Of a stretch of 64,000 bases of DNA, positions 4,331 to 62,687 are shown one piece after another. The notes below the pieces were generated by a model that worked only from the letters and a program-made list of their open reading frames with translations, did no database searches and had not been told where the DNA came from. Positions within the stretch are counted from its first letter, which is position 1; every line of letters begins with the position of its first letter. The stretch comes from Isurus oxyrinchus (lineage: Eukaryota), in NCBI GenBank assembly GCA_026770705.1, contig JANJGN010000065.1, positions 806,001-870,000 of the forward strand. The letters are read 5' to 3'. A program made the position numbers and the translations under genes.

Positions 4331-5879
4331 CACTTTCATTGTGAGGTTAGTTTTCAACTCATTTGCGAGCCAGGCACTCTTTCCTTTGTTCTCTGCTCCC
4401 TGTAAGCAATGAAACACAGTAGTAGCTCAACCGGCTGCACGATCCTGATGTCTGCTCCTGCAGGATCAGAAAGAGAGACGCTTGGGTTAGCATATTTGTC
4501 CAAAGTACATCTCTTGGTGAAGACAAAAGGCCACTTGGCGCTTGCCAGGAAGTGCCAGGCACCACCTCAAAAGCCAGTGCACTTCATGATTGTTCAAAAC
4601 ACCGCCTATTTCATTGCCAACTCTCTTGACCTATTGTCAGCAGTTTGTCTTCTGGAATTCATGCTGCACTCTCAGCTCAAAGCGGGCATCCACCTAACAC
4701 CACAGCAAGGCTATTTTGCTCAATTAAACCATGAAGGGAACTGCTCCAATTCTGAATAACCACATATCAAGGACTGTAAGTGAGGTGGCCGCATTTCACA
4801 AGGGGCGTGAACAATTTGCCCAGTCGTCCAATTGCAGCATCCTAAAACACTGATTAATTGGCAATGCGTGCTCGACAGATGAGAGGCTCTAGACAATTTG
4901 GTGGCACATTCATGCTTTTCCGTTGTTTGAGTGAGCAGACATGTTTCAGAACCTTACTCCAAACATATCAATGAAGTTGCTGCTGAACCATCCCACCTTT
5001 GCAGCAAAGCTCAATTTTGACAAGATTTTTGACACCTGGCCTGTGGCTGCGAGCATCCATCCGTCTTTGCTATTTTGCTCCCCACCTATCAGCCCACCTA
5101 CACCGGATCCCGTGCCCCAGCACTGCACTAAAAGCCAGCTGGGTATCAGTGACTTGCAGGTTCCCTCCCCACCACCCATGCCCTCCCCGGGACTCCAACA
5201 GAGTGTGCATTGCCTCTTCCTAAATGCCCTACGGGCGAGGCTTCTGAGAACTGCACAAGGTTGTTGCACTTACCTTCGAGGACTCTAAAACTTCAAGTCG
5301 CCAGATGCACGCCTGTAAAGATAATCGCATATCATGACATTCTGAAGTCACATTGATGTGGGAGGTAGAATTAACGTGGATAGATGATTCCAGCCCCCGG
5401 CACAGTATTAAAATACCAAAATTTATGGCCCCTTCATGGCTGGGAAGGTGGTGCAAATGCGGGGAGCCATTCCAGACTTCAGTGGCTACGGCTGACCGTA
5501 GCATCCTGCTGGAATCAAATTCCACATTTTGTTTCTTACATTCGATTGCGGGAAGTGAAGCCCGTCATTACCTGTTGCAGAGGCTATTCAAAAACTGTTT
5601 TTTCACGAAAGTGCAACTCCTACGTTTGGACTTGCCACTATATTGCCCATTCACGCCCGCCATGACGCCCGCCAAACAAAGAGACAAGGAAATTCCGCCC
5701 ATTGACACTTAGAATATTCCTACATGAAAGACAAGAAAAATAAAATAAAAAAAAAATAGGAAATCAAGGGGAAGAAGGAAGGGTGTGACTTGTAGAAATA
5801 TTTAAAACTAGAAGACAAAATACGTAGAAACATAACAGTAAAACTGGCAACCAATGTTCTTAATCTGATGCTTTGCAAC

Positions 5880-8010: not shown

Positions 8011-9106
8011 CTTTTGTGGACATTTAATGCAGTGCTGCACCTGTCAAATACGACCATGTTTTTCCTGTGGGACCTGTCATTGTATGAATGTATTCAATGC
8101 GGGGCATCATATTACACTTGCTGTAAGTAGAGCTGATGACGATGATTCTGGGTGCTGAATAATCTCCATCGCTGTACACAGTCCCAAGAGCCACTGGGAA
8201 ATTAGAATAATGTTTTAATGAATAATATTTCCATTATGATTATAATTAGCTAATACCCAATTGCAGGTTTTACAGCACAGTAACGAGGCTCTCAGCCAAT
8301 CTTCCTGCTGGAGACAAACCCTACCCTTCTGCAGGTCATCGGAGACTATCAGTATAATCTTCGATTCCTGTTTCCCTCATACTCAATTAACTTCATCGTA
8401 AATATCATCTCATCCACTCCACGTGGTCGCAATTCCATATTCTCAACGACATTAAAGTATATCATTCTCTTTTCAGTATTTTCATGGATTTATTGCCGAC
8501 TGCCCTGCATTGAGGTGAATGAGAATTGGACACACACACATGTGTCACAACTATCCTATCCTCATTAGCCTCTGTTAATTTAATGGCCTCCATTCAATAG
8601 CCCATAAGCATTCTCTTATCCACAGGATTAAGGCATAACAATTTCCACAATGCTAATCTGTTTGTTTCCGTATTACCTTTGGACAGAATGTCGGCAGCTG
8701 ATACATGGAGTTGTGATTCTGTTATGATCGGCCAGAACCTAACATATGTGTGAAATTCGCTATTACCTCCATTCTATAAACAAACATATGTTTTAGTTCT
8801 TTTAGTGATCTTCCAGTTGAATTGAATGCCTGCTTTCTAATCGCATGTGCACCAACTCCATAAATACCCTTCTATACATAATAATGTGATACATCTTTAG
8901 CTCCGGTACCCAAATTACGTGGAGTGGTCTGAGACAAATGTGAGTCTCCTGTATGAGGGCATTGCTCACACCTGAATGATGAGTTTCCTGCAGAAGGCTG
9001 TGATCCCAAACTGGGATGACTCTTTACACTGAGAGTTGTCGGAGATCACATAACGATGTCCAGTATACCCATTTTGGTTACTCGTGAACAACATTTAAGA
9101 TGTCAA

Positions 9107-9364
9107 AACAAAACTGCGGATGCTGGAAATCCAAAACAAAAACAGAATTACCTGGAAAAACTCAGCAGGTCTGGCAGCATCGGCGGAGAAGAAAAGAGTT
9201 GACGTTTCGATTCTTCATGACCCTTCGACAGAACTTGATTAATGACTATCCTTTCAATTTGGCTCCTTTGCAATGCTTATTATTTCTGTAGGCTTACAGG
9301 CTTTCATCTAACATGTCTCAAATCAAGTTCTGTCGAAGGGTCATGAAGACTCGAAACGTCAACT
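9107..9364. mobile_element. Fold-back Penelope-like 3'-end insertion with captured local DNA
   Basis: Reverse arm ~9107-9240, 79-bp filler 9241-9319, forward arm 9320-9364. Perfect 15-bp TSD catttaagatgtcaa at 9092-9106 and 9365-9379. Confidence 0.85.
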
Positions 9365-10069
9365 CATTTAAGATGTCAACCTGGCTCCTGGAAGTAATCT
9401 GTTGCTTGGCTCAGAAACATATTTGTTACACCTGGTTTGGATGCTGGCTGAAGTCACGGTCGAGTTAAGCCTAACCACTGCCTTGCTACCAAATTCGTGC
9501 TGCTAAAATCCAATCTACCTGGACTCGGAAACGGAAAGAGTTCATCAGTAACCGCCCATCTCCGTCAATTGTGATCTTGTCCTATGGAAAGTGCCGCCTC
9601 TCCACCAGCGATACTTGCTACGCTGTGGTAATGGCACAAACAGAAGCCCTCATCATTATTTCAGTGGTTATGCTAAACCGAATCAATGATTATAGTGTCC
9701 CGCTCAATTTCCTGAAAATTACGCGTGTGCAGTGTTCGCTACACCTTGTTTCTTGCAACCACAGACTGTACTGCTTGGTTAACTGTCACTTTCAATTTTG
9801 ATCGATTCGATGTCATATGTTGCCAGAAGTTGAAATCTCAATATTGGACCAGATAAACTGCGGCTGTCGGTCTAGAAGCAGATAGCATTCCGTCCTGCTT
9901 AAAATAATCTTTCCAACCTAGGTTAGGTTTAACTATTATTGTTATCGGCAGCTCAGTTTGCCGTTGTTCTAAAAATCCAAGCTACTTTAATGATGCATGA
10001 TCGGTTGCTTTTATGATCTTCGAAAAAAAAACCGTATTGCTTCCAATCGGGTTCATTCCATTGTTCAAC

Positions 10070-10819
10070 TGTTATAAAGCATTTGGTTAATACCTTTATT
10101 TGAAACCCCAGAGGTAAAATGTATACAACTACCATAGCCTATACATTCAATTGGTATGTTGAATATGCATCTTTGATTTCGGAAATGAACCCACGAAGCC
10201 CCAAGAGGTGTGGATATCAAACTAAATTATATATTTATTTATTTACAACAGGTTATGAAATACATACATATGTCTACAAATTACAACTATCACAATTTCT
10301 AAACAAATTCCCAAATTAATCTCCACTAAGGCACCTGTAATCAATAGACTTAACCAGACACCAGGTAAAGCATTTTCACCTTATTGTATCAAAATGACTA
10401 TCCTTTCAATTTGGCTCCTTTGCAATGCTTATTATTTCTGTAGGCTTACAGGCTTTCATCTTACATGTCTCTGCAAAGCACACAGATACCGTTCTCTAAT
10501 AACGATCCTTTCCTTTTGAATGTAAATTTCCATTGATTCACCAGGTCCTTTGATCCCCTATCATTGTATTAGCTTTATTAATAACATAAGCATTGCTTGG
10601 CATCTCCTAGCTGCGTGCAAGAATACACACCCATTCCTGAATGCTCCATTCAACAAAATCTAAATGAACACTCTACCTCTACTTACGGCTCAAAAATTAC
10701 TATACATAAAAGTACCTAGACGAGTTGTCTTTAATCCAGTTAAAATTCGCATTGGCCAAACATCTACTAACAAAGAAAATTTCCAATATTATTATCTGCA
10801 TGAATATCACTTCCTGACA
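10070..10819 (-). repeat. 3' LTR of the Gmr1-like Gypsy element
   Basis: On minus it begins TGTCAGGAAG and ends ...TATAACA. It is preceded on minus by a purine tract (AGGAATGGGGA, 10820-10830) and is homologous to 20284-20948 and 31680-32427. Confidence 0.7.
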
Positions 10820-13800
10820 TCCCCATTCCTATCGAAAAATGAACAGTCAGCATCCTAAAGGAAGTTTCCATTTTTTTAATAAACCATCTCACACTATGTC
10901 CCATACTTATTAGCCTATAATATTACCAGACGCATGCATTAAAATAAGGCACCGTTCCATTGAAATGACCATGTTTTTGAAAATCCACAATTTTCCTTTA
11001 AGATTAAAACGCAGGTCCTCCACATGTATAATCCGTAGAATAAATGGTTGTAATAATAATCTCTTCGTACAAGGTCTTGCACTTTTATCACAAAATTTCT
11101 CCAAATCTTCATGGGATTGTGGTCTAGATAAATAATTGTTTCCAATGAATTGCTTGCAACATAAATTTCAAAATGCTGCGTTGCCAGCATTATTGAACTC
11201 TATTTCTATCGTTGACTATCGGCTATGTTGCACGTCCAGCTCCTGTGAAAAAAATATCCTACCGATTTTACAATTCCAATGTTATAAAGTTGTAAACGTA
11301 CAGCCATTGTGCCTATATCGCTTGCATCAATGGCGAACATAAAGTGGCATAATTGGGTACTTCCAAACTTGATGTCATAGTTAACACGTAGCTTTCGAAC
11401 TACTCAATGACTTCTGACACACCAATGTCCATTGAAATTTCCTGTTCATTTATGATAATTCAGCCAGTGGAGCAACCACTCGGCTAAAATGTGACATAAA
11501 TTTACCGTAAAACCCACTCATGCCCAGAAATATCATAAATTCTTGTTTTGTCGGAGGTACTGGGAAATCCCGATATCCTTGACGTTCACATTACCTGAGA
11601 GCAACCTTACGATTTCCAATGATATGTCCTGGATGCTTAACCTGCACTTTTGCAAAATCACTTTTAGCCGAGTTCAACGCCAAGTGAGCTTCTTATATTC
11701 GAGTAAATATGTTTTCCAGAGGGGGTGAATGTTCTAAATACAAACGTTTAGATCATCAATAAAAACAACACAATTGCTTAGACCCGCAATTAATTTGTTT
11801 GTCATTCTTTAAAATGTCACGTGTGTATACTTCATAACAAATGGCATGACCTTAAACTGGTGTAGTTCACTTGATGTTACAAAGGCTCATATCCCTATTG
11901 CTCTCTCTGACAAAGGTTGCTGCCACTTTACTTTAGCAAGCCAAGCTGTGTGATAAATTTCGATTGCCCTACTTTCTTAATACAATCTTCCAACCGTCGT
12001 GTAGGATATGAATCCGTTTTTGTCACCACATTCATCTCTCCATAGTCCAGAGAGAGTCATAGTTCTCCAACTGGGTTCTGTACCAATGGATTAGGTGCAC
12101 TCCATTTAGTGCAACTAGACTCACATATATAGCTTTGAAGCACAAAAGTAAGATATTTTTTGTATTTGAGATAACTTTGTCGGATTTAATCTATAAGGAT
12201 GTTGCCTGATTGAAGAAAGAACTTGCACTGAGGCATTAAATATAGCAAAATGCATGTTTCCCAAATTCTTTCCACAAATACACATCTGTTACTGCAAAAT
12301 AATTTCCAAACCACTTTGACACTTGTTTGGAACGTAACTAAATAGTTCATTAAAACTTTCAAGCACCCCCTCATTTTCTAATTCGATTAGAGGAAATTTA
12401 ATTGCAGAGACCTGCAGTTCTAATTGTTCTTCTTCGGTCACCATCAAAAATAGCTCTTTTTGTTCCTCTTCCCTGTGAAAGCACGTTTGAAGCATATTTT
12501 CGTGTCCGACCCTCTGCTTTTTGGTTATATCTGGAGTATGTATTAAATAATTTCCTTCAATCAATTTCTTTCCGATCCTGTAAGGCCCAGTAAATCGTCC
12601 ATTTAATGAATCAGTTCGCAATTGTAACTGAACTAGCACTTTCTCTCCAGAAGAAAAACTGTGTGGTTTAGCCTGCTTATTGGCCTTCACTTTCGTCAAT
12701 TGCTGTGATATGTTCAAATGTTTCCTCGCCAACTCACATGCTCTGTTCAATCTTTCCCTGAAATCTTATGTAATCCAGAAAAATATCTTTTGTATTTGAC
12801 CCATCAATTTTTCATGAATCAGCTTCAGTTGCCCCTTACCTTAGAGGCATACATTAGTTAAAAAGGGCTGAAACCAGTCGATGCATTTGGAGCGTCTCTA
12901 ATAGCAAGTAAAAGGAATGGAATTCCTGCATTCCAATCCTGTGGATAATTCTCACAATATGCCGTTCTCATTGTCTTTAGAGTTTGAAGCCATCTCTCAA
13001 AAGTTCCCCGTGATCCCGGAACTTAACTGTTGACTTAAACTGTTGAATCCCCAAATTGTTCATTTTTTTCACGAAAGAGCTGCGAAATTAAATTTGAAGA
13101 CTTATCTGATCGCTTTTTTTACCTACACCCTACACCATAACATGCAAAAATAAAAAGTCCTCCACAATCCTCTGAGTTGAAATATTTCACAATCGTTTCA
13201 GGAAATCTCGTAGATACATTGATTGTTGTCAGAAAATACTGATTTCCACTTTTGAACTTAGAAAAGGGTCCTACAAAATCAATTGTAGCCCATGTAAAAG
13301 GTTATTCAAACGGTGGTATAGGGATTAAACGCACGGCTTTAATCACTGCTTGACATTTATAACAGGTTCTACAGAATTTTAATACATCCCTATGCAAACT
13401 GGGCAAAAATGTAAAGGCAATGGTTCGTTCCCTGTGTTTTCCTAGTTCCTAAATTTCCACACATTGGAATTTGGTGACATTCCTCAGAATCTCGTTTTCT
13501 TTTACCCAACTGGGATGATAACCTGATGAACTTCAATGCAGTCTTCATTTGCTAAGAAATAATCCGACTTCTGCTTTTACATTTAGATATCTCCCTAAAG
13601 ATAATAACATATTGGAGTACAGTTTGCGTCTCTTTCTGCATAGACTTTCTGATATAACTCCTTTATTTGTAAATCCTTTATTCTGTAACTTCACTAACTT
13701 CGTTGAGTTAAACACCTCTGTTTAACGGTCCTGCCTTCTTTCCTCCAGAAACATGATATCAAATACAGTGTCAACTAATTCGATTTGGACATCTTTTAGC

Positions 13801-13984
13801 TTTTGAACTGCTTGCCCTTCGTGTGCGACTCGCTCTTCCCAGTAAGATTTTGACCTCGTTACAACACAATCAGGAAAGAATCCAGGATGTTCCTACTGTA
13901 ACAGCTCTGTTGGAAATAATTATACAGGTTGCTCAAATTCTATAGGCATCAACCACATTTGCGATCCAGCTCTATAGTTGCACA
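10820..13984 (-). mobile_element. Gmr1-like Ty3/Gypsy pol remnant with domain order IN-RT-RNase H
   Basis: Minus-strand order is integrase (~13500-12500: IDFVGPF..KSGNQYFLTTINVSTRFPE; RFTGPYRI), then RT (~12250-11450: VFIDDL at ~11750-11765), then RNase H (~11400-10900: QHFEIYV...TIIYLDHNP). Heavily frameshifted. Confidence 0.8.
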
Positions 13985-14695
13985 TGTTGGCCACTGGCTG
14001 CAGCTCAACTGCCAGACACAGGCAAAAGCAAATTTTGAACTGAAGTATCTTGAGTCCAGTTGCTGGCCTGAGTAACTTTTCAAATCTGACTCCAATCACT
14101 GGGTCCGAACTGGTTAGAACCACTTTCAAAGAAGCTGAGTTTCTTCAAGACAATGGAAATGTGATGCGTCCATATTTAGAAACAGAGAAACGAGATAATC
14201 CTTCAAGTCTTGGAACAGCCAATAGAGAAGATGCCAAAGATCAGAAAAGCAGACCAAAACCAACGGGAAGAGAGACAGAACAGCTTGAAGATATACAATT
14301 CAGTGTAACACTGAGAGGACTTCGGGCATCGGGCAGCGAGTCTCTGGAGACCAACCATGGCAGAAGTGAGGGAAACTACATCCGCAACGTTGAGATGCAC
14401 GGGAGAGAGAAGGGAATGCCTGGCCAGCATCAGCTCTCCTTTTCGGATACTAGCTTTTATATTCTGTGACCACTCAGGGAGTGTCAGAGAAACCTAGTGT
14501 ATGAGTGTTTAGATCCTAGTTCTGAGTATAAAACTGTATAACCTGCTGTAAACTGTATGTCTATATTTAAACAGATGTATGAATTGTGTGTAGATGATCT
14601 AAAGACGTGAATAAGCACGTTCAAAGTTAAGAGAGAATTCGCTCTACTCCGCTGTGTACTAAGCCATTAACCATTACCGGTGACCTCCTGCAACA
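13985..14695 (+). repeat. 5' LTR of the nested retrovirus-like element
   Basis: Has TGTTG...CAACA inverted termini, starts where Gmr1 pol homology stops, has TATAAAA near 14527, and is followed after 4 nt by the PBS. Confidence 0.7.
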
Positions 14696-14717: not shown

Positions 14718-17700
14718 TCAAGGATAAGTCTCTGAGTTCAGTTACCGGGAGACTCAGGCGAACCAATTTGGCGAAGTATAGGCATAACAGGAGTTTGGGT
14801 TAATTCATAGCTGTTAACATAAGATGACGAATCAAAGGGAATATCTGTTTTGACTGGAAGGGAATTCTTCATAAATACGTAATAGGGGAGTGGCCGCATT
14901 ACACGGAAAATGTAGGTCACATTGGTCACAAGGGAAATCCGGCTATAGAGGCCCTTTGGAGAATTGCGCAAACAAAGATGTCAGATAAGAAATTTAAAAC
15001 AGGTACCGAAGTCCATAGCGATCGGATGTTTATTTCAGGAATGGATAGAATGCTAAAAGCAAGCTAGGAGAGAGCGAGACAAACTAGAGGAAGAAAATAA
15101 GAAATTCCATGAGGAGTTTAGTGAGAATTGCCTTAGTGAGAAGGTTACTGATTTAAAACAGCAGAGAAGTGTGGATTTGTTGCACATGAACCGATATCAG
15201 TTACAGTTCGAAAAATTGGCTGATAAAAAAGAGTAAGAGAGAGGGAGAAGCCCAAACAGCTAAAGCTGAGGAGGAGGGTTGGAAACAACAACGTAGTGAT
15301 TTTAAAAGTGTTATGAATGTGATTCACAGAGCAGCTCAGGAAAAGAGGAGCACTACCGGTGATCACACAAAGTGTCAGAAACTAATAGTGAGGCTGCAAG
15401 ATCAGCCACCTACACAGGGGGGCATACAGTGTGCTTTTACACCCGGAACAAGTGAAGAAAAATGTCAAGGGGATATAGATTGGGATGATTTAGCAGGCGG
15501 GGTGAATAGATACAACGGAGGTGACGGGAAAACTCCACCAGAGAATCCACCACTGGCATCTAAACCAGATCCGGAAAAACTGTCTGCCCAAATGGCCCCC
15601 CTTGTAACCACTAGAGCAAATGTAGGGCTGATGGCCAGGGTCAAGCCGGCCCTAATATGACATATTCCAGCCCACTTGGGATACAAGCACTGAGGGATAT
15701 TGCAAAATATATAGGGACGTGTGCACCCAGGGATGATCCGAGCGAGTGGTTCCTCGCAGTCAGGCAACAGGGAGGGGCACACGGCTTAGACGATGATGAG
15801 GAAAAATTAATTCTAATGTGCCTACACCCACATATATACTCTGCCCTACCGGAGGAGCAAAAACTTGGTAGAGGCACAAATGAGGCCTCAAAGAACCAGG
15901 TTTTACCTGTCATGGACGATAACAGAGGGGTCCCACTGTAGGCGCTGATGAAATGCTATCAAAGAAAAGGTCAATACACCACCACAGTTTGGCTCGCATT
16001 TGGGTGGTATTTTAATTGGTCAATGCCACTGGCCTAGATAAGGATAATTTACAGCTGGAGGTTAGGAACTGATGGCAGAGTATGCTCGTGTTGCAAGGCA
16101 CTGAGGAGTCGAGGAAAGCATTGGATCAGTTTGATTCCACATATGACGCACATAGAGAGCACTGGATAATTAAAAAGATAGTTGGAGTATGGGAAAGGGA
16201 AACACCAAAACTACCCAAGGCATCTTGGGACACAGCAATGCTTGTTAAGAATCAGCTGACAACCTGGAGAAATGAAGGGAGGGGACCTCCTCAGAGGGAC
16301 CATGCTCCAGCCTATCAGACATTGGGTAGAGACAGAGGAAAAGGAAACTTCTCGGGGACGGGGTGAAATCAGGGCTAGGTGTCCAGATGGTATAACTGTG
16401 GCCGAGAGGGAAACTTCTCAAGCGACTGCCCAAACTGGAGACGAGAAAATTCAGGTCAGGGAGGAAACCGGAGCCTACCCGTGGAAGGACCGAATAGAGC
16501 AAGTCCGCAGTGTGATATGATAGAAATACCAGCGAGTTCTTAGTTGTACCCTGAACTGCAATGACGGTCTCAGGCCTCTCCATAATGGGTGTGTGATATG
16601 CAGTGGGATGACACGGGAAGACTCTTAGTGAATGGTAGGGTTGGACGCCGGCCTATTAAATTACTTTGGGACACAGGGGGATCCCACACCGCCTTCAGCA
16701 CCAGTCAGATCAATGACATAGATTGGAAAATTAAAAACAACATTTTTCTAAGCCGATTCACAGGACATTCACAAGTAGGATATGTGAGTGTACCGTTGGA
16801 AGTCGGTGTGGGAGACATATTGATAGAACATTCAGTGGCTCTTATCAAATTACTCAGAGAACTAGAACATCTTTCAGGGAGCGACTGTATGGTCAGAGCA
16901 GGATTCTGCTTTGACCTAGTTAATTGTATGATTTGACAAATGCCTTTGGACAAAGGCAGTATAAATCACACACTCGCTGGGTAGGAAAATATCAGGATAG
17001 GATATGCATGATCGGGGAAACGTGGATAGAACCAGGAGAAATGAGTGACGATCTTCATGTAAAACAAATTATTGCACAAAACTCAATATTAATCGTCCGA
17101 CTAAAGCATGATTGTGGGAAAATGACCAGACGTGTGTGCATACAAGGTCCAGACTCCAAACCACAAAAGCAGTACGGTTTACCAAAAGAAGCAGAATAAG
17201 GGATAGGAAAGGTGATACAGAGTCTGCTGCAACAAGGGATATTAAGACCAATAGCTTCTACTAACAATGCACATATATGGCCGTTGAGAAAAACCAACAG
17301 CAGCTGACAACTACAGATAGACTACAGAGAATTAAGGGAAGTGACCCCTTTAACACCCCTACTGTAGCAACTAGCCCAGAGACAGTAGTTCGACAAAATA
17401 AGAATGGCAATGGTTCACAGTTTTGGACATAAGTAACGGTTTTTGGTCTAGTGCACAGGAGAAAGTATGTCAATATAAATTCGTTTTTACTTTCCATGGA
17501 AAGCAATATAGATGGACCACCCTGCCATAGGGATTTCAGAATTCCCTGTCCATATTTCACCAACGTGTAAGGGAAGGGTTAAAAGGATTCTCGAGGCCTG
17601 AATTTCTAGTGCAGTATGTAGACGACGTACCCCTACAAATTGAAACCAAAAAGCAACATAATCAACGACTAAGTGAATTACTGCAGTTAAGTGACTTGGG

Positions 17701-19930
17701 ATTAAAGATCAACCCTAAACAAGCGCAGATCATGAAACAATAAGTTACTTACTTGGCAATGATTGTGACACCGGGGAAGAGGGACATTGACAAGCGTAGG
17801 ATGAACACAGTTGGCAGACTCAATGTTACAAGACGTAAAAGGGTTAACGTCCTTCTTAGATTTGGTCTGATATTGTAGGGACCACATAGATGGATTCACC
17901 AAAAAAGCAGCACCGCTAATGGAATTATTTAAAAAGAATTTGACCTGTGAGTGGAAAACATTACAAACCCAGGCCATGAACGCTCTAAAGCAAGCATTAG
18001 CTGCTGTGTCAGCTCTGAAAACCCCAAATCCAACTGAGCCATTTTCATTTGGGGTGGCTATCACAGACACCACCCTTTCAGCAGTTCTATTACAGGAGAC
18101 ACATGGGAACTTACGACCCGTAGCGTATGCCTCACATATGCTCTCACCAATACAGTAGGGGTATACGATATGCACAAAACACTTGCTAACTGTCTTTTGG
18201 GCAGTGCAGCATTTTACCTTTATAGTGGGAATAAACACAATTACAACATTAACAGAACACATCCCTGTACAGCTACTGAATTACGGAACGATTAAGGATG
18301 GTACAGTTAGACAAATAGAATCCCTAGATGGATAATGTTGCACGGGAGAAATATAACCATAAAGGGGGATAAAACACTATCATGTTAAGAGATAACTTAC
18401 TTTATCAGGGAGAAAAACAAGAATGTCAAATTATGAATGCAAATGACTCCAAGGGCCCATTTGTATCAGAAGAAAAGGGAGGGCGTAGGACTGGGCCTGA
18501 AAGTAGAAAAACAAAGCAATCAGGAAAGGAAAACCCTATTTTAAATCCTGGTGAATGGCTCTTCATCAGTACAGCATGGGGAAAGGAGAACTGTCTGTGG
18601 GATATCCATGGAGTATGAAAACGGACAGGAAAGATTTAGAGCGGCTTTGAAATATCCATAAAACCATGAGTGTGCAGGGAGCAGAACTAGCAGCCATTGC
18701 ATATGTGGTTTGACACCCGGAATATTTCCGCCTAGATCAGTCATATATTTTGATGGCATGTCTGTCTGTAATAGCCTCACAGAACATTTGCCCCTATTGG
18801 ATGCAAAAGATTTTGTCTCTGCAGATGGAAGGCCTCTTCCTTCCTCCCCGCTATTGCAATACATCTTTCAAGAAGCACAAGGGAAAGAATTTGTGGTCAA
18901 AAAAGTGAAAGCTCATTCAAAATTATCTCCCGATGGGAACAGGAATTCTGATGAACTAGCCAAACGAGGTGCTGTAAGTGGACAGGAATGGTAGCCACTG
19001 ATTTTGGAAATTGGGGGCCAGAAAGAGAAGCAGGTTAAAGTAATGGATTTAATGGATGAGCAAAAGAAAGATGGAGAATTGAAAAAAAATAATAGAAGGA
19101 GCACAGTCAGACATACTTTAAAAGCACGAGGGCGTCTATATTCAAAATTGAGTGGTTTTACGTGAGCGGAAATTTGGGCCACCAGAGGAGGGGCGAAAGC
19201 AAATTATCCACCAGTACCATGAAATATGGGGACATAAAGGAATGGAGAGTACCCTGTATTCGATAAAGGAGGTATGCTGGTGGCCAGGAATGAAAGGTGG
19301 TGTGCACCACTATGTCAAGATTTGTTGATCTGTGCACAACACAACCCCGATAGAAATTTTAGGAAAGGGGCCTCCAACATAATAGACCAGTAGAAGGGCC
19401 TTGGACTAAGTTACAGATAGACTATGTAGGATCCCTTCCCCCACAACAGAGGACTACAAGGATATTCTAGTATTATTGGATACCTTCACTAAACAGGTGG
19501 AAGCTTTTCCGAACAGAACAAACACAGCCAAAATTAGTGCAATTTTTTTTTTAGGGAAGGTGTTTACATGCTGGGGTTTACCTGGAGGCAGAGAATTGCA
19601 TCAGGGAACATGTTTTACAGCCCAAGTAATGCACGATGTTATGAATCTTTTTGGGATCAGGCAGAGATTCCACATACCCTATAGACCACAGTCTAGTGGA
19701 ATTGTGGAAATTCTGAATCGGACATTGAAAAACATGATAGCCAAAATGGTGCAGCAGCACAAGACAAACCGGCAGATTGTTCTGCCCTATGTGCTGATAA
19801 TAATCAAGAATACCATGGCTTCAACAGGATACACTCCTTATAGGCTTATGACAGGTAGGGACATGAGGGGATTGGAGGGGTTGGTAGATCTGGATTTGGA
19901 CTCAAGAATGAGGTTTGTTGATGCATACTA
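14718..19930 (+). mobile_element. Decayed endogenous retrovirus-like element: gag-PR-RT-tether-RNase H-IN, 3' truncated (no env or 3' LTR seen)
   Basis: Gag-like fragments at ~15300-16500. Protease LLWDTGG (~16661-16681). RT QYVDD (YVDD 17615-17626). Degenerate RNase-H-like tether (LSAVLLQETHGNLRPVAYAS, ~18000-18300). A second RNase H (YFDGMSV...VKKVKAH...GNRNSDELAK, ~18560-18970). Integrase (CWWPGMK..., QIDYVG, DTFTK.VEAFP, YRPQSSGIVEILNRTLK). Confidence 0.85.
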
Positions 19931-20283: not shown

Positions 20284-20948
20284 CGTCATAACCGATGTTT
20301 TCAACTGGAGTATTTGATATGGAACTCTGAATTCATAAATGAACCCGCCAAACCCCCAGACGTCTCTATATCAAACTAAATTAAACTTGTATTGTTTTGC
20401 AAAAAAGGTATTAAACACATACACATGTCTACACATTTCTATTTTAAATTTTAAACAAAGTCCCAAGGAAACAATAACCAATAGACTTAAGCAGACACTA
20501 GGCGGAGCATTTTCACCAGACGAATTCGAAATGTAGTTCCTTACTGTTTGGTTCCAATACTAACAGTTTTAATCTTACAAATTTTCAACTTACACGTCTC
20601 TGTGATGCACATGGGTTCACCCTTTGCTAAACCTAGCCTTTCTTTCTGAATGCAAATTTTCATTGTATGACCAGGCCCTTTGAAATCCGTTCATAGTTCC
20701 ATTGTCATCAGTAATAAAAGGATTGCTTGGTGTCTTCCTAACTAGATGCAAGATTTCATCCGCACTCTTGAATGTTCTATTTAGCAAAATGCAAATGTAT
20801 CCGCCAGCCCTGTTTACATCTGAAAACTACGGTACACCAAAGCACCCAGCCTCGCTGGCTTTCATCCAATTAGCACACACAGACTAATACTCGATTAAAA
20901 ATGTTAGAAATACTCCAATGATATTATCATTACTTCCTCTTCCTGACA
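20284..20948 (-). repeat. 5' LTR of the Gmr1-like element (strongly diverged from 10070-10819)
   Basis: Shared blocks aaatgaaccc, atatcaaactaaatta, aatagacttaa.cagacac.agg, tgaatg.aaattt.cattg, and the terminal cttcctgaca. Confidence 0.65.
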
Positions 20949-23747: not shown

Positions 23748-24840
23748 AAACAAAAGCAGAATTACCTGGAAAAACTCAGCAGGTCTGGCAGCATCGGCGG
23801 AGAAGAAAAGAGTTGACGTTTCGAGTCCTCATGACCCTTCGACAGAACTTGATTTCGATCCAAGAAAGAGTTGAAATATAAGCTGGTTTAAGGTGTGTGT
23901 GTGGGGGGCGGAGAGATAGAGAGAGAGAGGTGGTTGTGTGGACAAACAAGCAGTGATAGAAGCAGATCATCAAAAGATGTCAGCGACAATGGTACAATAG
24001 AACACATAGGTGTTAAAGTTAAAGTTGGTGATATTATCTAAACGAATGTGCTAATTAAGAATGGATGGTAGGGCACTCAAGGTACAGCTCTAGTGGGGGT
24101 GGAGGGAGCATAAAAGATTTTAAAATATTTAAAAATAATGGAAATAGGTGGGAAAATAAAAATCTATATAATTTATTGGGGGGGGGGAAAGGGGGAAACA
24201 GAATGGGGGTGGGGATGGGGGAGGGAGCTCACGACCTAAAGTTGTTGAATTCAATATTCAGACCGGAAGGCTGTAAGGTGCCTAGTCCCGTCTGAATATT
24301 GAATTCAACAACTTTAGGTCGTGAGCTCCCTCCCCCATCCCCACCCCCTTTCTGTTTCCCCCCTTTTTTTCCCAATAAATTATATAGATTTTTCTTTTCC
24401 CACCTATTTCCATTATTTTTAAATATTTTAAACTCTTTTATGCTCCCTCCACCCCCACTAGAGCTGTACCTTGAGTGCCCTACCATCCATTCTTAATTAG
24501 CACATTCGTTTAGATAATATCACCAACTTTAACTTTAACACCTATATGTTCTATTGTACCATTGTCGCTGACACCTTTTGATGATCTGCTTCAATCACTG
24601 CTTGTTTGTCCACACAACCACCTCTCTCTCTCTCTATCTCTCCGCCCCCCACACACACACCTTAAACCAGCTTATATTTCAACTCTTTCTTGGACTCGAA
24701 ATCAAGTTCTGTCGAAGGGTCATGAGGACTCGAAACTTCAACTCTTTTCTTCTCCGCCGATGCTGCCAGACCTGCTGAGTTTTTCCAGGTAATTCTGTTT
24801 TTGTTTTGGATTTCCAGCATCCGCAGTTTTTTTTTGTTTT
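23748..24840. mobile_element. ~1.1-kb near-perfect fold-back (head-to-head) Penelope-like 3'-end insertion
   Basis: Left arm ~23748-24266 is the reverse complement of the right arm ~24288-24805, with a ~21-nt spacer. Arms encode the Penelope ORF end (LGTLQPSGLNIEFNNFRS*). Perfect 14-bp TSD catttcaatatctg at 23734-23747 and 24841-24854. Confidence 0.9.
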
Positions 24841-31679: not shown

Positions 31680-32427
31680 CCTATATTTTGAATAGGTATT
31701 TTTCAGATGCAGTACTGAATTCATGAATAAGACCATCAAGCTGCAAGAGTATTTTTAATGTAAAACTAAATTAAAAGTTTGTTAAATTAACAACGAATTA
31801 AACAAATAAACATGTCTACAAATTACTAGCGTAATAATGAAGTTAAAAGAATCCCTACAACAATAACTACCACGTAAATCTTCACAGAGGCAATAAGAAC
31901 AGATAGATTTTAAATAGACACCATGCAAAACACATTTGACCTTAAAAAATCTAAATTAGGTTCATTTCAATTTGTTTCCTTTTCAGACAGAGTTGTGCAC
32001 TTACAGACTGATTAGATCTGAAATGTCACTGACAGATGCAAACAAACACCTTTTTGTCTAGACCGAGCTTAATCTTTGAATGTAAATTTTCTATTGTAAT
32101 GTTTAAAAAAGAAACCGCTCTTAGAAATATTCTTTTCATTCCATAAATTTAATTTGTGATATAAACACATTGCGTGGCGTTTCCCGGCTTGGTGCAAGAT
32201 TTTACATATTCTTTTGAATTGTTTCTTCAACTGATGCAAAGTTATGCTTTACTTTCTACACCTCCCGTTTACCATAATGACACCCCAACCTACTATGCAT
32301 CTAAGCAACCAGGCTAGCAGGCTTTAATCCAATTAAGACCCACAGAGCCAAACAGAGGCAGGCTAAAAAAAAATCCAATTTAAAATAATTTCCAATTCCA
32401 GTATAGAAAATAATATTTCTTCATGAC
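31680..32427 (-). repeat. Solo LTR related to the Gmr1-like LTRs
   Basis: Shares aaactaaattaaa, ttgaatgtaaatttt, ggtgcaagatttt, gctttaatccaattaa and the terminal ttcatgaca with 10070-10819 and 20284-20948. No internal coding sequence is adjacent. Confidence 0.6.
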
Positions 32428-33196: not shown

Positions 33197-33314
33197 AATA
33201 AAAATTAAAAAACTGCGGATGCTGGAAATCCAAAACAAAAACAGAATTACCTGGAAAAACTCAGCAGATCTGGCAGCAGACCTGATGAGTTTTTCCAGGT
33301 AACTATGTTTTTGT
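33197..33314. mobile_element. Minimal fold-back Penelope-like 3'-end insertion
   Basis: A reverse arm is joined directly to a short forward arm. Perfect 13-bp TSD aatcaaactttaa at 33184-33196 and 33315-33327. Confidence 0.85.
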
Positions 33315-44035: not shown

Positions 44036-44946
44036 TCATTCTCTCGGTGTATTTATTAATTGCATAATTGACCTAACAGGATATGTTCCCGCCCTTTTGA
44101 ACTGTTCTCTGAATTTGGATTGTGTCACTGCATAAATGAATGTGTTTGTGCAACAACTTACATCTCGCAGCATAAATCCTACTTGCCGAAAAATGTATAA
44201 AGAATCGTTGTAACTATATGGATCTGTTCCTGTAATGTTATAATATAAAAAATCTACCACATTTGTCAACCACAACAGCATGAAGCTGCCGGATATTGTG
44301 AATAGTAAGATCATCGACTTCCTTCTGCTTTCCATTTCTGGGTCATTTTGGCCTTTTCCCTTGCTCTGACCCCTCAATTTCTTACGGACTCGACTGGCCA
44401 CTAAAATATGCCTGACTGTCAGAACATTAAGCAAAAGAATCAAAGTGAATGGGAGCAATGGTGTTAAAACTTTATGAAACCAGTCAAAGCCCACCCACGC
44501 TGGATCTGTATAATAGCTTGGCATATCATGGCAGTACCAGGGTACATTGCCGATTATCTCTCTTGGTTCATATATAAAGCAAAATGGAACGTTTCTTAAA
44601 CAGAACACAACACAAGTTGTTGATAAAACCACAATTGCTGTTTTCTCCGTGCAATATTTAGATCTAAACTTTTGGCAACAGATTGTGACAAATCGATCAA
44701 AGGAAAAAGTGACGGTGAACCAGACAGAACAATCTGTGGCTGCAGAAATCAGGGCAAAGATAACACTACATAACGGAGTGATGTCCAGGAAAGAACCAGG
44801 GAAATAATAATCACGTATCTGATACAAAATGGCATCAGTAATAATTACAAGTAAATCCGCCGCTGCCATTGCTACCAGGTACCTTGTTGTGCAAGTGGAT
44901 AGGCCGCACTTTCCCCTGGACAGGATCAAAATCGTCACTAAATTAA
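44036..44946 (-). CDS. Coding exon 2 of a GPR139/GPR142-like class A orphan GPCR (325 aa when spliced to a 67-nt exon 1)
   Basis: Intact frame covering the end of TM1 to TM7: YLVAMAAADLL (TM2), FSFDRF (DRY), LPF (TM5), NTFIY (NPxxY). Acceptor ttttctctcttacag at 44947-44961, phase 1 (G|TT = Val of VNLV). Confidence 0.92.
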
Positions 44947-45209
44947 CTGTAAGAGAGAAAATTAAAATAGATTGTAAATGACAGAGCAAAGTCTCCGTGT
45001 TTTAGTCGAGGTTGTAAGGCATGATTACATCATAAGGGTGATTTGGTATATTTTAAGGTGCTATGAGTTAATGAAATCACAACCCATCTCCCAGCCAAAC
45101 TCGAATCCATTCACCTCCAGATTAATCTCCGGCAGGACAAGGGGCGGAAAATGCTCCTGGGAAAATATTCTGGCCATTTCAACAGATAGTGTCTTTGGCA
45201 ACATTTGAT

Positions 45210-45660: not shown

Positions 45661-47071
45661 TTAAGTTTTTATGACATGCTTCAACAGACTAATCATACGA
45701 CACAAAGTCATTCTGAATTGGTGAACGTCTCCAACTACCACTAGATTAGAATCCTTCCACGGTTTCTGAAGAATCAGATCCCCTCCACCTCACCACCCAC
45801 CCCCCCCACCCCCCCCCCCCCCCCCCCAAAAAAAAACGGATCAGCATAACTAATTTTCGCTCGTCGCCCTGACACCCTCGTGGTCGGGCATTCTTCAGCC
45901 TGTCTGTTGGCAGGTGTTCTACTCCTGTAGTAGCAAACAGTCAGTAAAATTATACACTTACAGTCCCTCGTGGTAATAAATTCCCAAAGGGGCTAGTGAA
46001 TGGTCAGAGTAAGGAACGTGCTATATCATGGGCCCAATGGTGTGAAAAGCCTTAAGGGGAAGTTCGATTGATCGATAGGTGAGGAAATACATGGATATGC
46101 TAATAACTTTAGCATGACTGTGAGGGAGAGGCACTGTTGTGGAACATAAACACAGGCAAAATCCATTTGGTACGAATGGAAATTCCTCTGTTGTAAATCC
46201 TATGAAATGAGCTGCAATTAAATTACGAACAATATTCATCAGTTCCTTTGTAACAGTACAGATGATAAACCCGTCTGTTCATTAAAACCGTGCACTATAA
46301 ATTCATATTTAATTTTTGAATGGCATTACTCCGTGCCCGTGGACGCAGCTCCGTTTTAGAAAAATCTGAATTGTATGCTTCTGGGTTTATATGCTTCCCC
46401 TGGTTCACAGAAAAGAACCGATTCATCAAACTTCAGTGAGATTCAGAAGTAGAATAATGAATAACAACAACGCAATCTTACTCCTACATAGCAGTAACAT
46501 TAAAAAATGAACACAATTGGGAAAGGGGTTCTCAACCGAGGGAAGGGGAATAGGCAACAACAGAAACTGTTTGTATTTAGTCAATAATGTGTAACGTTGT
46601 CATTATTCCAATTATTTGAATACGGTACTGCTGTCCAACTCTGCGTCTCTCACTGGACACTTAGCAACTCGGTCTCTTCCTGAAGTTCCATAAGAAATCT
46701 AAAATGTCAATCAGTTTCAATCAATAGACGTATTCAACCAGCAGCAAAAACCTTTCCATTTGCCATCGAGTTATTTAAGAATACAAGGCAGGGTTACTAT
46801 GGTGCGCAGTGATCAATCCCCCGAATGATTAGTTTTTATTAAGCAAAAATGGTGTGTACCATTACACTTGATGACCCGCATTCAGCTCAGTTCCACAGAG
46901 ACACATGCTCTTATTAAAACGTGTCCACTGGGGTCAGACTTTCTATCCCAGTTAATCACCACGCCCAGTGCTGTCCCAGAGGGTTCGATGCTCCGAGCAA
47001 TGATTTGTCTGCGCTTCTGCGTGATTCAAGAACCAAAAGTAATGCACTGAAATCAATTAGCTCATATATCA

Positions 47072-47265
47072 AAAGAAAAACAGAATTACGTGGAAAAACT
47101 CAGCAGGTGTGGCAGCACCAGCACACAAGAAAAGGTTCTGCTGAAGGGTCATGAGGACTCGAAAAGTCAACTCTTTTCTTCTCCACCGATGCTACCCAAC
47201 CTGCTGAGTTTTTCCAGGTGATTCTGTTTTTGCTTTGGATTTGCAGCATCATCAGTTCTCTGTTT
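47072..47265. mobile_element. Fold-back Penelope-like 3'-end insertion in the GPCR intron
   Basis: Short reverse arm plus a full forward arm. 15-bp TSD ttagct(c/g)atatatca at 47057-47071 and 47266-47280 (1 mismatch). Confidence 0.8.
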
Positions 47266-49593: not shown

Positions 49594-49986
49594 GCACCTT
49601 ACAGCCTTCCGGTCTGAATATTGAATTCAATAACTTTAGGTCGTGAGCTCCCTCCCCTATCCCCACCCCCTTTCTGTTTCCCCCTTTTTTTCCCCTTTTT
49701 CTTTTTTTTCCCTATAAATTTTATAGATTTTTCTTTTCCCACCTATTTCCATTACTTTTAAATATTTTAAAATCTTTTATGCTCCCCCCACCCCCACTAG
49801 AGCTGTACCTTGAGTGCTCTACCATCCATTCTTAATTAGCACATTCGTTTAGATAATATCACCAACTTTAACTTTAACACCTATGTGTTCTTTTGTCCCA
49901 TTGTCACTGACATCTTTTGATGATCTGCTTCTATCACTGCTTGTTTGTCTACACAAGCACCTCTGTCTCTCTCTCTCTCTCCGCCG

Positions 49987-50017
<31 letters not shown>

Positions 50018-50200
50018 CCACACACCTTAAACCAGCTTATATTTCAACTCTTTCCTGGACTCGAAATCAAGTTCTGTCGAAGGGTCATGAAGACTCGAAA
50101 CGTCAACTCTTTTCTTCTCCGCCGATGCTGCCAGACCTGCTGAGTTTTTCCAGGTAATTCTGTTTTTGTTTTGGATTTCCAGCATCCGCAGTTTTGTTTT
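49594..50200 (+). mobile_element. Young single-arm Penelope-like 3' end
   Basis: Near-identical to the arms of 23748-24840 and ends in ...ggatttccagcatccgcagttttg. Confidence 0.85.
50070..50108 (+). ncRNA. Minimal type I hammerhead ribozyme-like motif (variant core CUGUCGA)
   Basis: AGUU-CUGUCGA-A-GGGUC(augaa)GACUC-GAAA-CGUC^-AACU: stem I AGUU/AACU, stem II GGGUC/GACUC, palindromic ACGU stem III. Further copies at 9326-9364 (+), ~9197-9235 (-), ~23811-23849 (-), ~24705-24743 (+), ~47134-47172 (+). Confidence 0.6.
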
Positions 50201-52094
50201 GTCATTATCTAGGTAACATCCGTCAGCCCTTCTCCCTCGAATATATTTGTCCTGCTACATTTGAATTTATTATTTCGCTGGATGTGGATGTTTCTGACTC
50301 GGCAAGCGTTTGCTTACTATTGCTAATGGCTCACCAGCATCTTCCTTTGGAAGGTGGTGGCGAGTAATTTTCTTGATGCGCTGTGGTGTAGGCTATCCAG
50401 CAGTGCTGTTAGGATGTGATTCCAAATCAGGATGGTATGTTGCTTAGAGATGAACATGCACTTGGTCGCTTTCATGTGCACCTACAGTCCTTGCTTAACT
50501 AGGCGACAGAGAATCTATGTTTGGGAGGCGCTGTTGAAGGAGGCATGACAAGTGGCTACAATGCATCTTGTATATGGCACCATCTTGATCGCTGGTGCAA
50601 ATGCCTTTAATTCAGCTGCCTTGACACTTGACTCTGGAAATTGCTGTTTACCCATCTCTACCTCTGTACTCCTTTAATATGGCCCCTGGAAGTTCAATGC
50701 AAATGACAACTTTGTTGATTACAGCTATTTTAATTATTTAATATTTAAATTTTCCTTGCTATCATGTCACTCTCGTTACAGAGTTACAAGTAATTGGTAA
50801 CTTGGGCATCGTATACATTACATAGGGGAACAGGCTCAAAGTTTGGATGGAGAGTCATGTTGGATTCGAAACCTTAGCTCCGGTTCTCCCTCCACAGATG
50901 TTGGCAAGCCGATTTAGTTCTTAGAGCTCTTTCTGTTCTTATTTCAGATCCGCCGTATTTTTTATGATTGTTATAGAGTATCAGTTTCCTTTAAATAAGC
51001 ATGATAATGGCCCACTTGTTGAAACTGCAATGTATGCAAGTTTAATTTCTCTATTTCAATACAACTCATTATCCAGCTGTGACATTTAATGCCTGTTGAT
51101 GTTTGCAGGTTATTTCTTAAATTCCTATAGGATGGCTGTTTCTCTTATCGCTCAATCAACGTTTGTGGTGTCCATAAAAATGTTAGCTAATGTGCATATT
51201 TTACTAAAGGGAATCAAAGACTCCAGCGTAGCTGCATTTGAGAGCCAAAGGATTTACTGCAACAAGCAGAAGGAGAGTTCAATAATTTGAATGTAGTGAC
51301 AGTATCATCCTGTTGTATACTCGTCAGTGGAAGTGCTAAATAGGAAACAGAGCAACATCAATGTACTTCAAGTTATTATCGTATTACCTAAGAACTTCCC
51401 ACAGCAGCAAGCATCAACTCAACTGGAAAACATGCCGGCAGCTCCAGGGAGTTGGTACACTACTGACTGGAAGCAATAGTTTCCATTTTGTACCACCCTG
51501 GTTAGTGATACATAGTCAATAAAATTTTACACTGAAAGATCATCCGAGTAATACATGTACACTGCTGTCAGGTGTTCCACTCCGGATAGTGACACACTCA
51601 GTGAAATTATATAATTACAGATAGTCCTCGTAAAAAGGAATCTCACACTGGAGTGCGGGGGTGTTCAGATGGTGGAATGAACTAGAACATGGAGCAGAGC
51701 ATAGGAAATGATTGTTCGCAGCATGTGGATAGGTACTTGAGAGAGAAGAATTTGATATGTTGATGACAGAAAAATGCACAGAATGCAGAGATTGACTTTG
51801 GAGAGATTATCCAGTAGAGCATAAAAACATGCAAAATCCAGTTGGTATCAGTGAGACCTTCATGTTCTGTATTTTCCAGGGGTTAATGACGTAACTTAAT
51901 GAATAATCGCAGTCAGCAGTTATTCCACTACTGTATGGGTATCGAATCAGTGCGCTCAATAAACAGTGCACTATTTACCCATTTTATATTGTTAGCTATA
52001 TTATTCAGAGCCCCTGGAATTAGCTGTACATCATGAAAATAAGGAAGGATTTTTTTCTGGCTTTATTCATCTCTCATCTCTCACTGGAGGACAT

Positions 52095-62446: not shown

Positions 62447-62687
62447 AAAAACAAAAAAAACTGCGGATGCTGGAAATCCAAAACAAAAACAGAATTACCT
62501 GGAAAAACTCAGCATGTCTGGCAGCGTCGGCGGAGAAGAAAAGAGTTGATGTTTCGAGTCCTCATGACCCTTCGACCGAACTGAGATTGGTCGAAGGGTC
62601 ATGTGGACTCGAAACGTCAACTCTTTTCTTCTGCACCGATGCTGCCAGACCTGCTGAGTTTTTCCAGGTAATTTTGTTTTTGTTTTG
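62447..62687. mobile_element. Fold-back Penelope-like 3'-end insertion
   Basis: Arms meet at cttcgacc-gaactgagatt-ggtcgaag. Perfect 14-bp TSD ttaacaatagtaat at 62433-62446 and 62688-62701. Confidence 0.88.

What the first reader, a model, noticed from the sequence alone, without database searches (positions are those of the whole stretch)
9092..10471. Fold-back Penelope insertion has captured 79 bp of neighbouring genomic DNA between its two arms
Seen: between the inverted arms (inside a perfect 15-bp TSD), 9241-9319 is a 78/79 copy of 10393-10471. That donor lies ~1.15 kb away, in the same orientation, inside the local Gypsy LTR. The equivalent segments of the other two LTR copies in the window (~20530-20600, ~31950-32030) are far more diverged, so the nearby copy is the likely donor. 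Inference: two cDNA 3' ends primed from opposite nicks were bridged by copying nearby DNA, through an RT template jump or Pol theta-style templated repair. This would be a route by which these elements package local host sequence as the loop of a hairpin flanked by hammerhead-like motifs.
Basis: partly seen in the sequence, partly recalled or inferred. Interest (0 to 1): 0.78.

Follow-up and report, generated by a model that had tools for sequence, protein, structure and literature searches.

The report
Penelope fold-backs patched with neighbouring DNA
A mirror-image insertion of a Penelope-type jumping gene holds a 79-base copy of DNA from 1 kb away exactly where its two halves meet, as do 20 other insertions of this family, and the patch was likely copied while the element's two new DNA ends were being joined, a scar already known from other retrotransposons.

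Summary
Confirmed. A 15-bp target-site duplication (TSD) encloses two head-to-head arms of a Penelope-like element (PLE; a family copy encodes RT plus GIY-YIG) and a 79-bp filler matching 10393-10471. Four paralogous loci and a related organism show the empty site. A fifth paralog carries the same insertion with filler 79/79 identical to its donor. Four paralogs share the donor 79-mer, so here the cis copy is inferred, not proven.

The habit recurs genome-wide. Of 20 independent long non-element fillers at other insertions, 20 map within about 1.3 kb of their own site, with no unrelated matches. This affects roughly 0.6% of fold-backs. Junctions carry 2-7 nt microhomology (this locus: none). 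Five fillers copy the flank-TSD-arm junction, so their template was DNA that existed only after insertion began.

Best reading: both target strands prime cDNA on one RNA, and the two 3' tails are joined by microhomology-primed copying of local DNA. The polymerase is unknown, and later repair of a broken palindrome is not excluded. I found no sign that fillers are re-mobilised, so 'packaging' is unsupported. Similar scars are known for LINE-1, R2 and Pol theta; I found none in print for PLEs. This scan noted single cases before.

The parts
9092..9106 (.). Left copy of the 15-bp target-site duplication
   Evidence: single copy in 4 empty paralogs; empty site in run X15
9107..9240 (-). Long arm: 3' end of the PLE pseudo-LTR including the tail, 5'-truncated
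   Evidence: family identity from L064 (RT + GIY-YIG)
9197..9235 (-). Minimal hammerhead-like motif of the long arm; non-canonical core; one stem II pair broken by a change at 9211 that the C53 copy lacks
   Evidence: read from the sequence; not found by Rfam; does not fold into the motif as a monomer
9241..9319 (+). 79-bp filler copied from local chromosomal DNA
9320..9364 (+). Short arm: starts within 1 nt of the same element position as the long arm; ends 4 nt after the presumed hammerhead cleavage triplet (inferred internally primed)
9326..9364 (+). Minimal hammerhead-like motif of the short arm, core CUGUCGA instead of CUGANGA
   Evidence: sequence; fold gives stems I and II but z = -0.23; no Rfam hammerhead hit
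9365..9379 (.). Right copy of the target-site duplication
10393..10471 (+). Donor of the filler, about 1.0 kb from the target site, inside an old dispersed repeat (about 10096-10820)

Best explanation
This is a 5'-truncated, head-to-head insertion of a Penelope-like retrotransposon whose centre holds a copy of nearby chromosomal DNA, likely made while the element's two new cDNA ends were being joined. Shown: the TSD, two arms from one template, and the filler-donor match. Inferred steps: (1) The endonuclease nicks both strands about 14 bp apart. (2) Both 3' ends prime reverse transcription on one RNA, usually at two start sites about 35 nt apart, here one at the tail and one internally. (3) Both cDNAs stop at nearly the same point, leaving two single-stranded 3' tails of the same sequence that cannot pair well. 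(4) In roughly 0.6% of events one tail anneals through a few bases to exposed DNA within about 1.3 kb, is extended by 60-200 nt, lets go and joins the other tail. The polymerase (host Pol theta-type or the element's own RT) is not determined. The filler is a by-product with no shown function.
For: Locality: 18 of 18 independent fillers with at least 40 non-element nt (19 of 19 with the window) match their own 10-kb locus at 91-100%. The only non-cognate hits among 2420 pairs were one paralog pair and a 16-nt element piece. Two of 2 later picks also map locally. Distances are 39-1226 bp for the 16 pure-flank cases, although 4.7 kb was searched on each side. The L155 filler has only 2 matches in the genome, itself and a donor 531 bp away. 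Microhomology: 14 of 19 gap-free junctions have at least 2 nt, against 18% expected (p = 1.7e-7; 14 of all 32 junctions, p = 6e-4). DNA template: 5 fillers run through arm, whole TSD and flank, a junction that exists only after target priming; many others re-copy their own arm, some 3 times in tandem. Two primers, one RNA: 72 of 87 insertions have one long-tail and one short arm; TSD is 13-15 bp in 78 of 110; arms share 17 variants against 1.4 expected; inner ends are equal in 33 of 69 filler-bearing copies (mean difference 1.5 vs 3.9 nt permuted, 0 of 10000 permutations); in 6 of 28 copies neither arm contains the other. Age: filler-donor divergence 2.4% vs arm-arm 2.1%, p = 0.62. In vitro, a PLE protein nicks and extends both strands from two RT starts that bound the tail (PMC11167929).
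Against: This locus has 0 nt of exact microhomology at both junctions. [quoted passage not shown] A later break at the palindrome centre gives the same two 3' tails, so locality, microhomology and junction-spanning fillers do not fix the timing. Loci were selected by exact anchors and short arms, so they are young and not a random sample. Orientation bias (12 direct, 4 inverted) is not significant (p = 0.08). At this locus four paralogs share the donor 79-mer.
Confidence: 0.66

Rival explanations
1. The element first landed as a spacer-less palindrome. Later a hairpin or cruciform was cut at its centre and end-joining repair put in the local copy (centre-break revision, recalled from the palindrome literature).
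For: It gives the same resected 3' tails, and so the same locality, microhomology, symmetric ends and junction-spanning fillers. Central deletions could also make non-nested arms.
Against: Fillers are no younger than arms (2.4% vs 2.1%). 4746 copies persist with centres of 0-34 nt, several of them perfect palindromes, and a 1.1-kb palindrome persists at 23748-24834. Both duplicated insertions examined (window/C53, L093/L094) carry the filler in both copies, but that is only 2 tests.
Confidence: 0.17
2. The element's RT jumped from the RNA 5' end onto a nascent host transcript or a released single-stranded DNA fragment from the site, then onto the other cDNA.
For: Zero microhomology here, with 3 terminal bases that fit both donor and a short fold-back. 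Both orientations occur. R2 5' junctions include 'extra template' and 'snap-back' classes (PMC11331408).
Against: Five fillers copy a flank-TSD-cDNA junction that no prior transcript holds. Microhomology is enriched overall. All donors are within 1.3 kb, and no distant RNA source was seen in 21 cases.
Confidence: 0.11
3. The unit is a mobile cassette: hammerhead-armed hairpins that package and spread host DNA.
For: PLE pLTRs have carried unrelated sequence in trans in a rotifer (PMC3846280 passages). A minus-strand transcript here would place the filler 5' of an arm that keeps both presumed RT start sites.
Against: No filler recurs at another target site: 2 genome searches and 21 fillers compared; repeats occur only with the same TSD, in segmental duplicates. 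No filler had a non-local donor. The core motif is non-canonical.
Confidence: 0.03
4. The filler came from a paralogous or other repeat copy in trans, or the junctions are an assembly artefact.
For: Four paralogs share the donor 79-mer. No junction-spanning read was listed.
Against: The same junctions occur on a second contig that differs by 0.65%. A short-read contig covers the filler. 20 of 20 other cases are local, one shown unique genome-wide.
Confidence: 0.03

Closest known systems
Inverted-pLTR plus tail insertions of endonuclease-bearing Penelope-like elements (PMC3846280 and PMC8557442, passages; PMC4209133, parts 1-2 of 4; PMC11167929, parts 1-2 of 4)
   Same: Head-to-head 5'-truncated copies inside one TSD, a 30-40 bp tail on one arm, minimal hammerhead-like motifs on opposite strands, RT followed by GIY-YIG.
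   Different: The passages read describe palindromic junctions and propose self-priming; none describes a locally copied filler. One notes unrelated sequences between solo pLTRs without naming a local source.
LINE-1 twin priming and 'templated insertions' (bioRxiv 10.1101/2024.08.27.596794 and PMC11702581, passages)
   Same: Both nicks prime on one RNA; the inversion junction is closed by end joining with microhomology; rare copies of genomic DNA under 250 bp (22 cases reported in a set of about 3,600 insertions).
   Different: L1 arms mostly copy different parts of the RNA and the templates lie within 15 bp of the site. Here both arms copy the same stretch, end at the same point, and donors lie up to 1.2 kb away (median about 480 bp).
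Pol theta-mediated end joining with templated insertions (PMC12426944, passages)
   Same: Microhomology priming, flank templates, iterative and patchwork fillers.
   Different: Usually under 25 bp; here 60-200 bp. Pol theta dependence was not tested.
R2 'snap-back' and 'extra template' 5' junctions (PMC11331408, passages)
   Same: [quoted passage not shown]
   Different: One cDNA joined to target DNA at a fixed rDNA site, not two cDNAs joined to each other.

Membership tests
Endonuclease-bearing Penelope-like element | Single ORF with RT and C-terminal GIY-YIG | tested here: met
   Family copy L064: 831-aa frame, RVT_1 E 8e-8 (above cut-off), GIY-YIG E 8e-4 (below cut-off); its 3' end matches the arms. 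The window copy has no ORF.
Endonuclease-bearing Penelope-like element | Inverted pLTRs inside a TSD with a one-sided 30-40 bp tail | tested here: met
   72 of 87 long+short arm pairs; TSD 13-15 bp in 78 of 110; empty sites
Endonuclease-bearing Penelope-like element | Clade (Penelope/Poseidon, Neptune, Nematis) by RT phylogeny | not tested
   no tree built
Minimal type I hammerhead ribozyme | Stems I and II, unpaired base before stem II, palindromic stem III region | tested here: inconclusive
   Present by eye and in the right-arm fold, but z = -0.23; the left arm folds otherwise; no Rfam hit
Minimal type I hammerhead ribozyme | Conserved core CUGANGA (consensus recalled) | tested here: not met
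   core reads CUGUCGA in both arms and in the family anchor
Minimal type I hammerhead ribozyme | Self-cleavage | not testable with these tools
   needs an assay
Locally templated insertion at a retrotransposon junction | Template lies near the insertion site more often than chance | tested here: met
   20 of 20 other independent fillers; no unrelated non-cognate hit
Pol theta-mediated end joining | Microhomology at junctions | tested here: inconclusive
   enriched in the set (14 of 19 gap-free junctions); absent at this locus
Pol theta-mediated end joining | Insert generally under 25 bp | tested here: not met
   60-202 bp, but the search selected for long fillers
Pol theta-mediated end joining | Genetic dependence on POLQ | not testable with these tools
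   needs mutants
Non-autonomous PLE derivative (retrozyme-like cassette) | Same internal sequence at several target sites | tested here: not met
Gypsy LTR (donor repeat) | Paired terminal repeats flanking gag-pol | tested here: inconclusive
   old dispersed repeat, 65-76% to other copies; Gypsy-order domains only at about 17.4-19.7 kb on +; termini not defined

The most novel reading that the evidence does not exclude
The fillers record the PLE integration intermediate in vivo. A PLE dimer primes both target strands, copies one RNA to a common end, and its telomerase-like RT itself closes the centre by jumping, sometimes repeatedly, onto DNA up to about 1.3 kb away. This would explain the inverted-pLTR structure by double target priming rather than self-priming, and would make PLE RT a DNA-templated end-joining polymerase.
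Probability: 0.3. Interest if true: 0.7.

Novelty: new variant of a known kind. Interest (0 to 1): 0.46.

Why it matters
How PLEs make their inverted repeats is still open: PMC8557442 speaks of 'still undefined features' of the cycle, and PMC3846280 proposed self-priming. A recurrent, mappable filler class, above all fillers that copy the flank-TSD-cDNA junction, gives sequence evidence on the order of events and predictions that the existing in vitro Poseidon system can test. It is also a small but regular source of 60-200 bp local duplications in a genome with on the order of 100,000 family arms (rough estimate from read depth). The single locus has no shown function.

Tried and rejected
Young LTR subfamily as donor: rejected; all near-identical matches are paralogs of this locus.

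Rows dropped from the 22: L094 (paralog of L093, same TSD); L112 (tandem element pieces, longest non-element run 16 nt); L113 (no donor anywhere, because it is two adjacent insertions with their own TSDs). L122 was skipped by the pipeline (anchor offset). L127, L164 and L090 fell under the 40-nt threshold and had no local match.

The first arm-arm divergence (5.2%) was an out-of-register artefact of L062; it was redone with gaps on all 16. The first microhomology null was one-sided and was replaced by a two-sided one.

Donor side relative to long or short arm: 9 vs 7 by eye, no bias. An anchor further inside the element gave 4 matches, all element-derived by eye. Rfam gave only hairpin-shaped miRNA and weak snoRNA matches below gathering score. 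Raw reads (X21, X22) were too thin for junction evidence. PMC9977147 and bioRxiv 10.64898/2026.07.22.740005 (passages) held nothing on fillers. Centres longer than about 230 nt were not searched.

Full report
OBSERVATION. The window is G000:C65:806001-870000 of a 4.98-Gb assembly. A perfect 15-bp repeat (9092-9106, 9365-9379) encloses a 134-bp arm, a 79-bp filler and a 45-bp arm in inverted orientation. The filler is 78/79 identical to 10393-10471 on the same strand. The region is a segmental duplication. Four paralogs (C166, C55, C119, C65:1.97 Mb; 96-98% alike) have the empty site, and one (C53; 99.35%) has the same insertion with filler 79/79 identical to its donor. A contig of organism B spans the empty site, and a contig set of organism A covers the filler at depth 14 against 64 in the flank. 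No junction read was listed. The donor 79-mer is identical in four paralogs, 96% to the filler in two more and at most 79% in the other 24 of 32 matches. The cis donor is therefore an inference at this locus. The other two in-window copies of the donor repeat are 70-72% alike. The 'Gypsy LTR' label was not established.

THE ELEMENT. The arms are the 3' end of an abundant family. [quoted passage not shown] Fold-backs are routine: 4746 copies with exact 13-nt anchors and a centre of 0-34 nt, and 750 with 16-nt anchors and a centre of 60-110 nt. Each arm has a minimal hammerhead-like motif whose core reads CUGUCGA, not the CUGANGA consensus (recalled). Rfam did not find it and folding support is weak.

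GENOME-WIDE TEST. I searched for fold-backs whose centre departs from the element and fetched 110 loci of 10 kb. These were all distinct matches (except the C53 paralog, fetched separately), the listed 50 of 127, and 8 picked by eye, all chosen before flanks were seen. Twenty-two centres, the window's included, had at least 40 non-element nt. Three were dropped: a paralog duplicate (L094), a tandem element piece (L112), and two adjacent insertions (L113). All 19 remaining, 18 besides the window, match their own locus at 91-100%. Of 2420 non-cognate pairs, 92 hit: 90 from the 16-nt element piece and 2 from the paralog pair. Two further loci picked also map locally (133 bp at 94%; 196 bp at 100%). 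For the 16 pure-flank cases donors lie 39-1226 bp away (median about 480), 12 direct and 4 inverted (p = 0.08). One filler searched genome-wide had only itself and its neighbour as matches. Frequency is rough: 7 of 35 matches are flank fillers and the filter passes about a quarter, giving about 28 against 4746, or about 0.6%. None of 13 bystander fold-backs or 15 loci had a flank filler, judged by eye; 52 terminal hits stayed unpaired and unclassified.

MECHANISM, SHOWN. TSDs are 13-15 bp in 78 of 110 loci. One arm is long-tailed and one short in 72 of 87, and 14 have an internally ending arm, as here. The two arms share 17 variants against 1.4 expected in 61 loci (later gene conversion could contribute). 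Inner ends coincide in 33 of 69 filler-bearing copies, and by eye within 1 nt in 40 of the 50 centres listed, where short gaps favour symmetry. In 6 of 28 copies neither arm contains the other. Microhomology of at least 2 nt occurs at 14 of 19 gap-free junctions, or 14 of all 32; this locus has none. Five fillers copy arm, whole TSD and flank, four of them from the short or internally ending arm. Many fillers re-copy their own arm, some three times. Filler-donor and arm-arm divergences are equal within error (2.4% vs 2.1%).

MECHANISM, INFERRED. Both nicked strands prime on one RNA. This matches the in vitro finding that a Poseidon protein nicks and extends both strands from two start sites bounding the tail, and is predicted to be a dimer (PMC11167929, parts 1-2 of 4 read). 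Both cDNAs end together, likely at the RNA 5' end, leaving two identical 3' tails. These are usually joined directly. Rarely one first primes on exposed local DNA and is extended. Junction-spanning fillers show a DNA template made after target priming. If fillers form during insertion, they also show that the short arm was attached to the chromosome before the centre closed, which argues against one cDNA folding back on itself, the self-priming model (PMC3846280, passages). The caveat is real: a later break at the palindrome centre produces the same tails (centre-break model, recalled; one search gave only a listing), and the age test cannot exclude repair soon after insertion. Neither can the data name the polymerase.

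PACKAGING. Not supported. No filler recurs with a different TSD and none has a distant donor. An active hammerhead would cut between the filler and the RT start sites (inference).

COMPARISON. The inverted-pLTR layout is known (PMC3846280, PMC8557442 passages; PMC4209133 parts 1-2 of 4). Locally templated inserts are known for LINE-1: 22 cases, under 250 bp, within 15 bp of the site (bioRxiv 10.1101/2024.08.27.596794 passages; its supplementary figure on distances was not seen) and PMC11702581 (passages). They are also known for R2 (PMC11331408 passages) and for Pol theta repair, generally under 25 bp (PMC12426944 passages). I found no paper describing them at PLE fold-back centres: one search returned 0 papers, and searches returned none on the point. 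The library lacks most subscription journals. Earlier notes of this scan describe single cases in this and other genomes, one probably the C53 copy; I did not check them and do not count them as support.

VERDICT. Real and recurrent; a new variant of a known kind of insertion scar. It is of moderate interest, mainly as a testable footprint of how Penelope elements integrate.

Noticed in passing
window 44039-45001 (-): 321-aa intronless frame matching 7tm_1 (E 3e-20); the segmental duplication may be a GPCR gene cluster.
   Followed up: no
window 23748-24834: 1.1-kb fold-back of the same family with a 14-bp TSD; present in the C53 paralog, absent from C166 and C55.
   Followed up: partly
window 33209-33314, 47068-47257, 49594-50205, 62448-62687: Further family copies: two short fold-backs with TSDs, one older fold-back and one single-arm copy.
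   Followed up: partly
L171 about 4480-4760 (C119 paralog): Independent fold-back insertion at the position equal to window 9923-9936, its centre a short re-copy of the arm.
   Followed up: partly
L078, L122, L158, L112: Centres with about three tandem re-copies of the same stretch, an iterative realignment pattern that recalls telomerase repeat addition or Pol theta cycling.
   Followed up: partly
listing; window 9232-9240: Arm inner ends cluster 0-4 nt outside the 5' boundary of the hammerhead-like motif, which may mark a preferred RNA 5' end; unexplained.
   Followed up: no
L134 centre: 202-bp filler that is itself partly folded back: its first 39 nt are the reverse complement of its last 39.
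   Followed up: partly
L141 and rows on C8, C17, C21, C65: Both arms share the same internal jump into the ORF 5' region, suggesting a rearranged source transcript.
   Followed up: no
window about 17400-19700 (+) and about 10800-14500 (-): Decayed Gypsy-order RT, RNase H and integrase on +; a second decayed retroelement-like stretch on - seen only by eye.
   Followed up: partly
set of 16 pure-flank fillers: 13 donors lie to the right on the assembly + strand and 3 to the left, although strand is arbitrary; probably chance.
   Followed up: no
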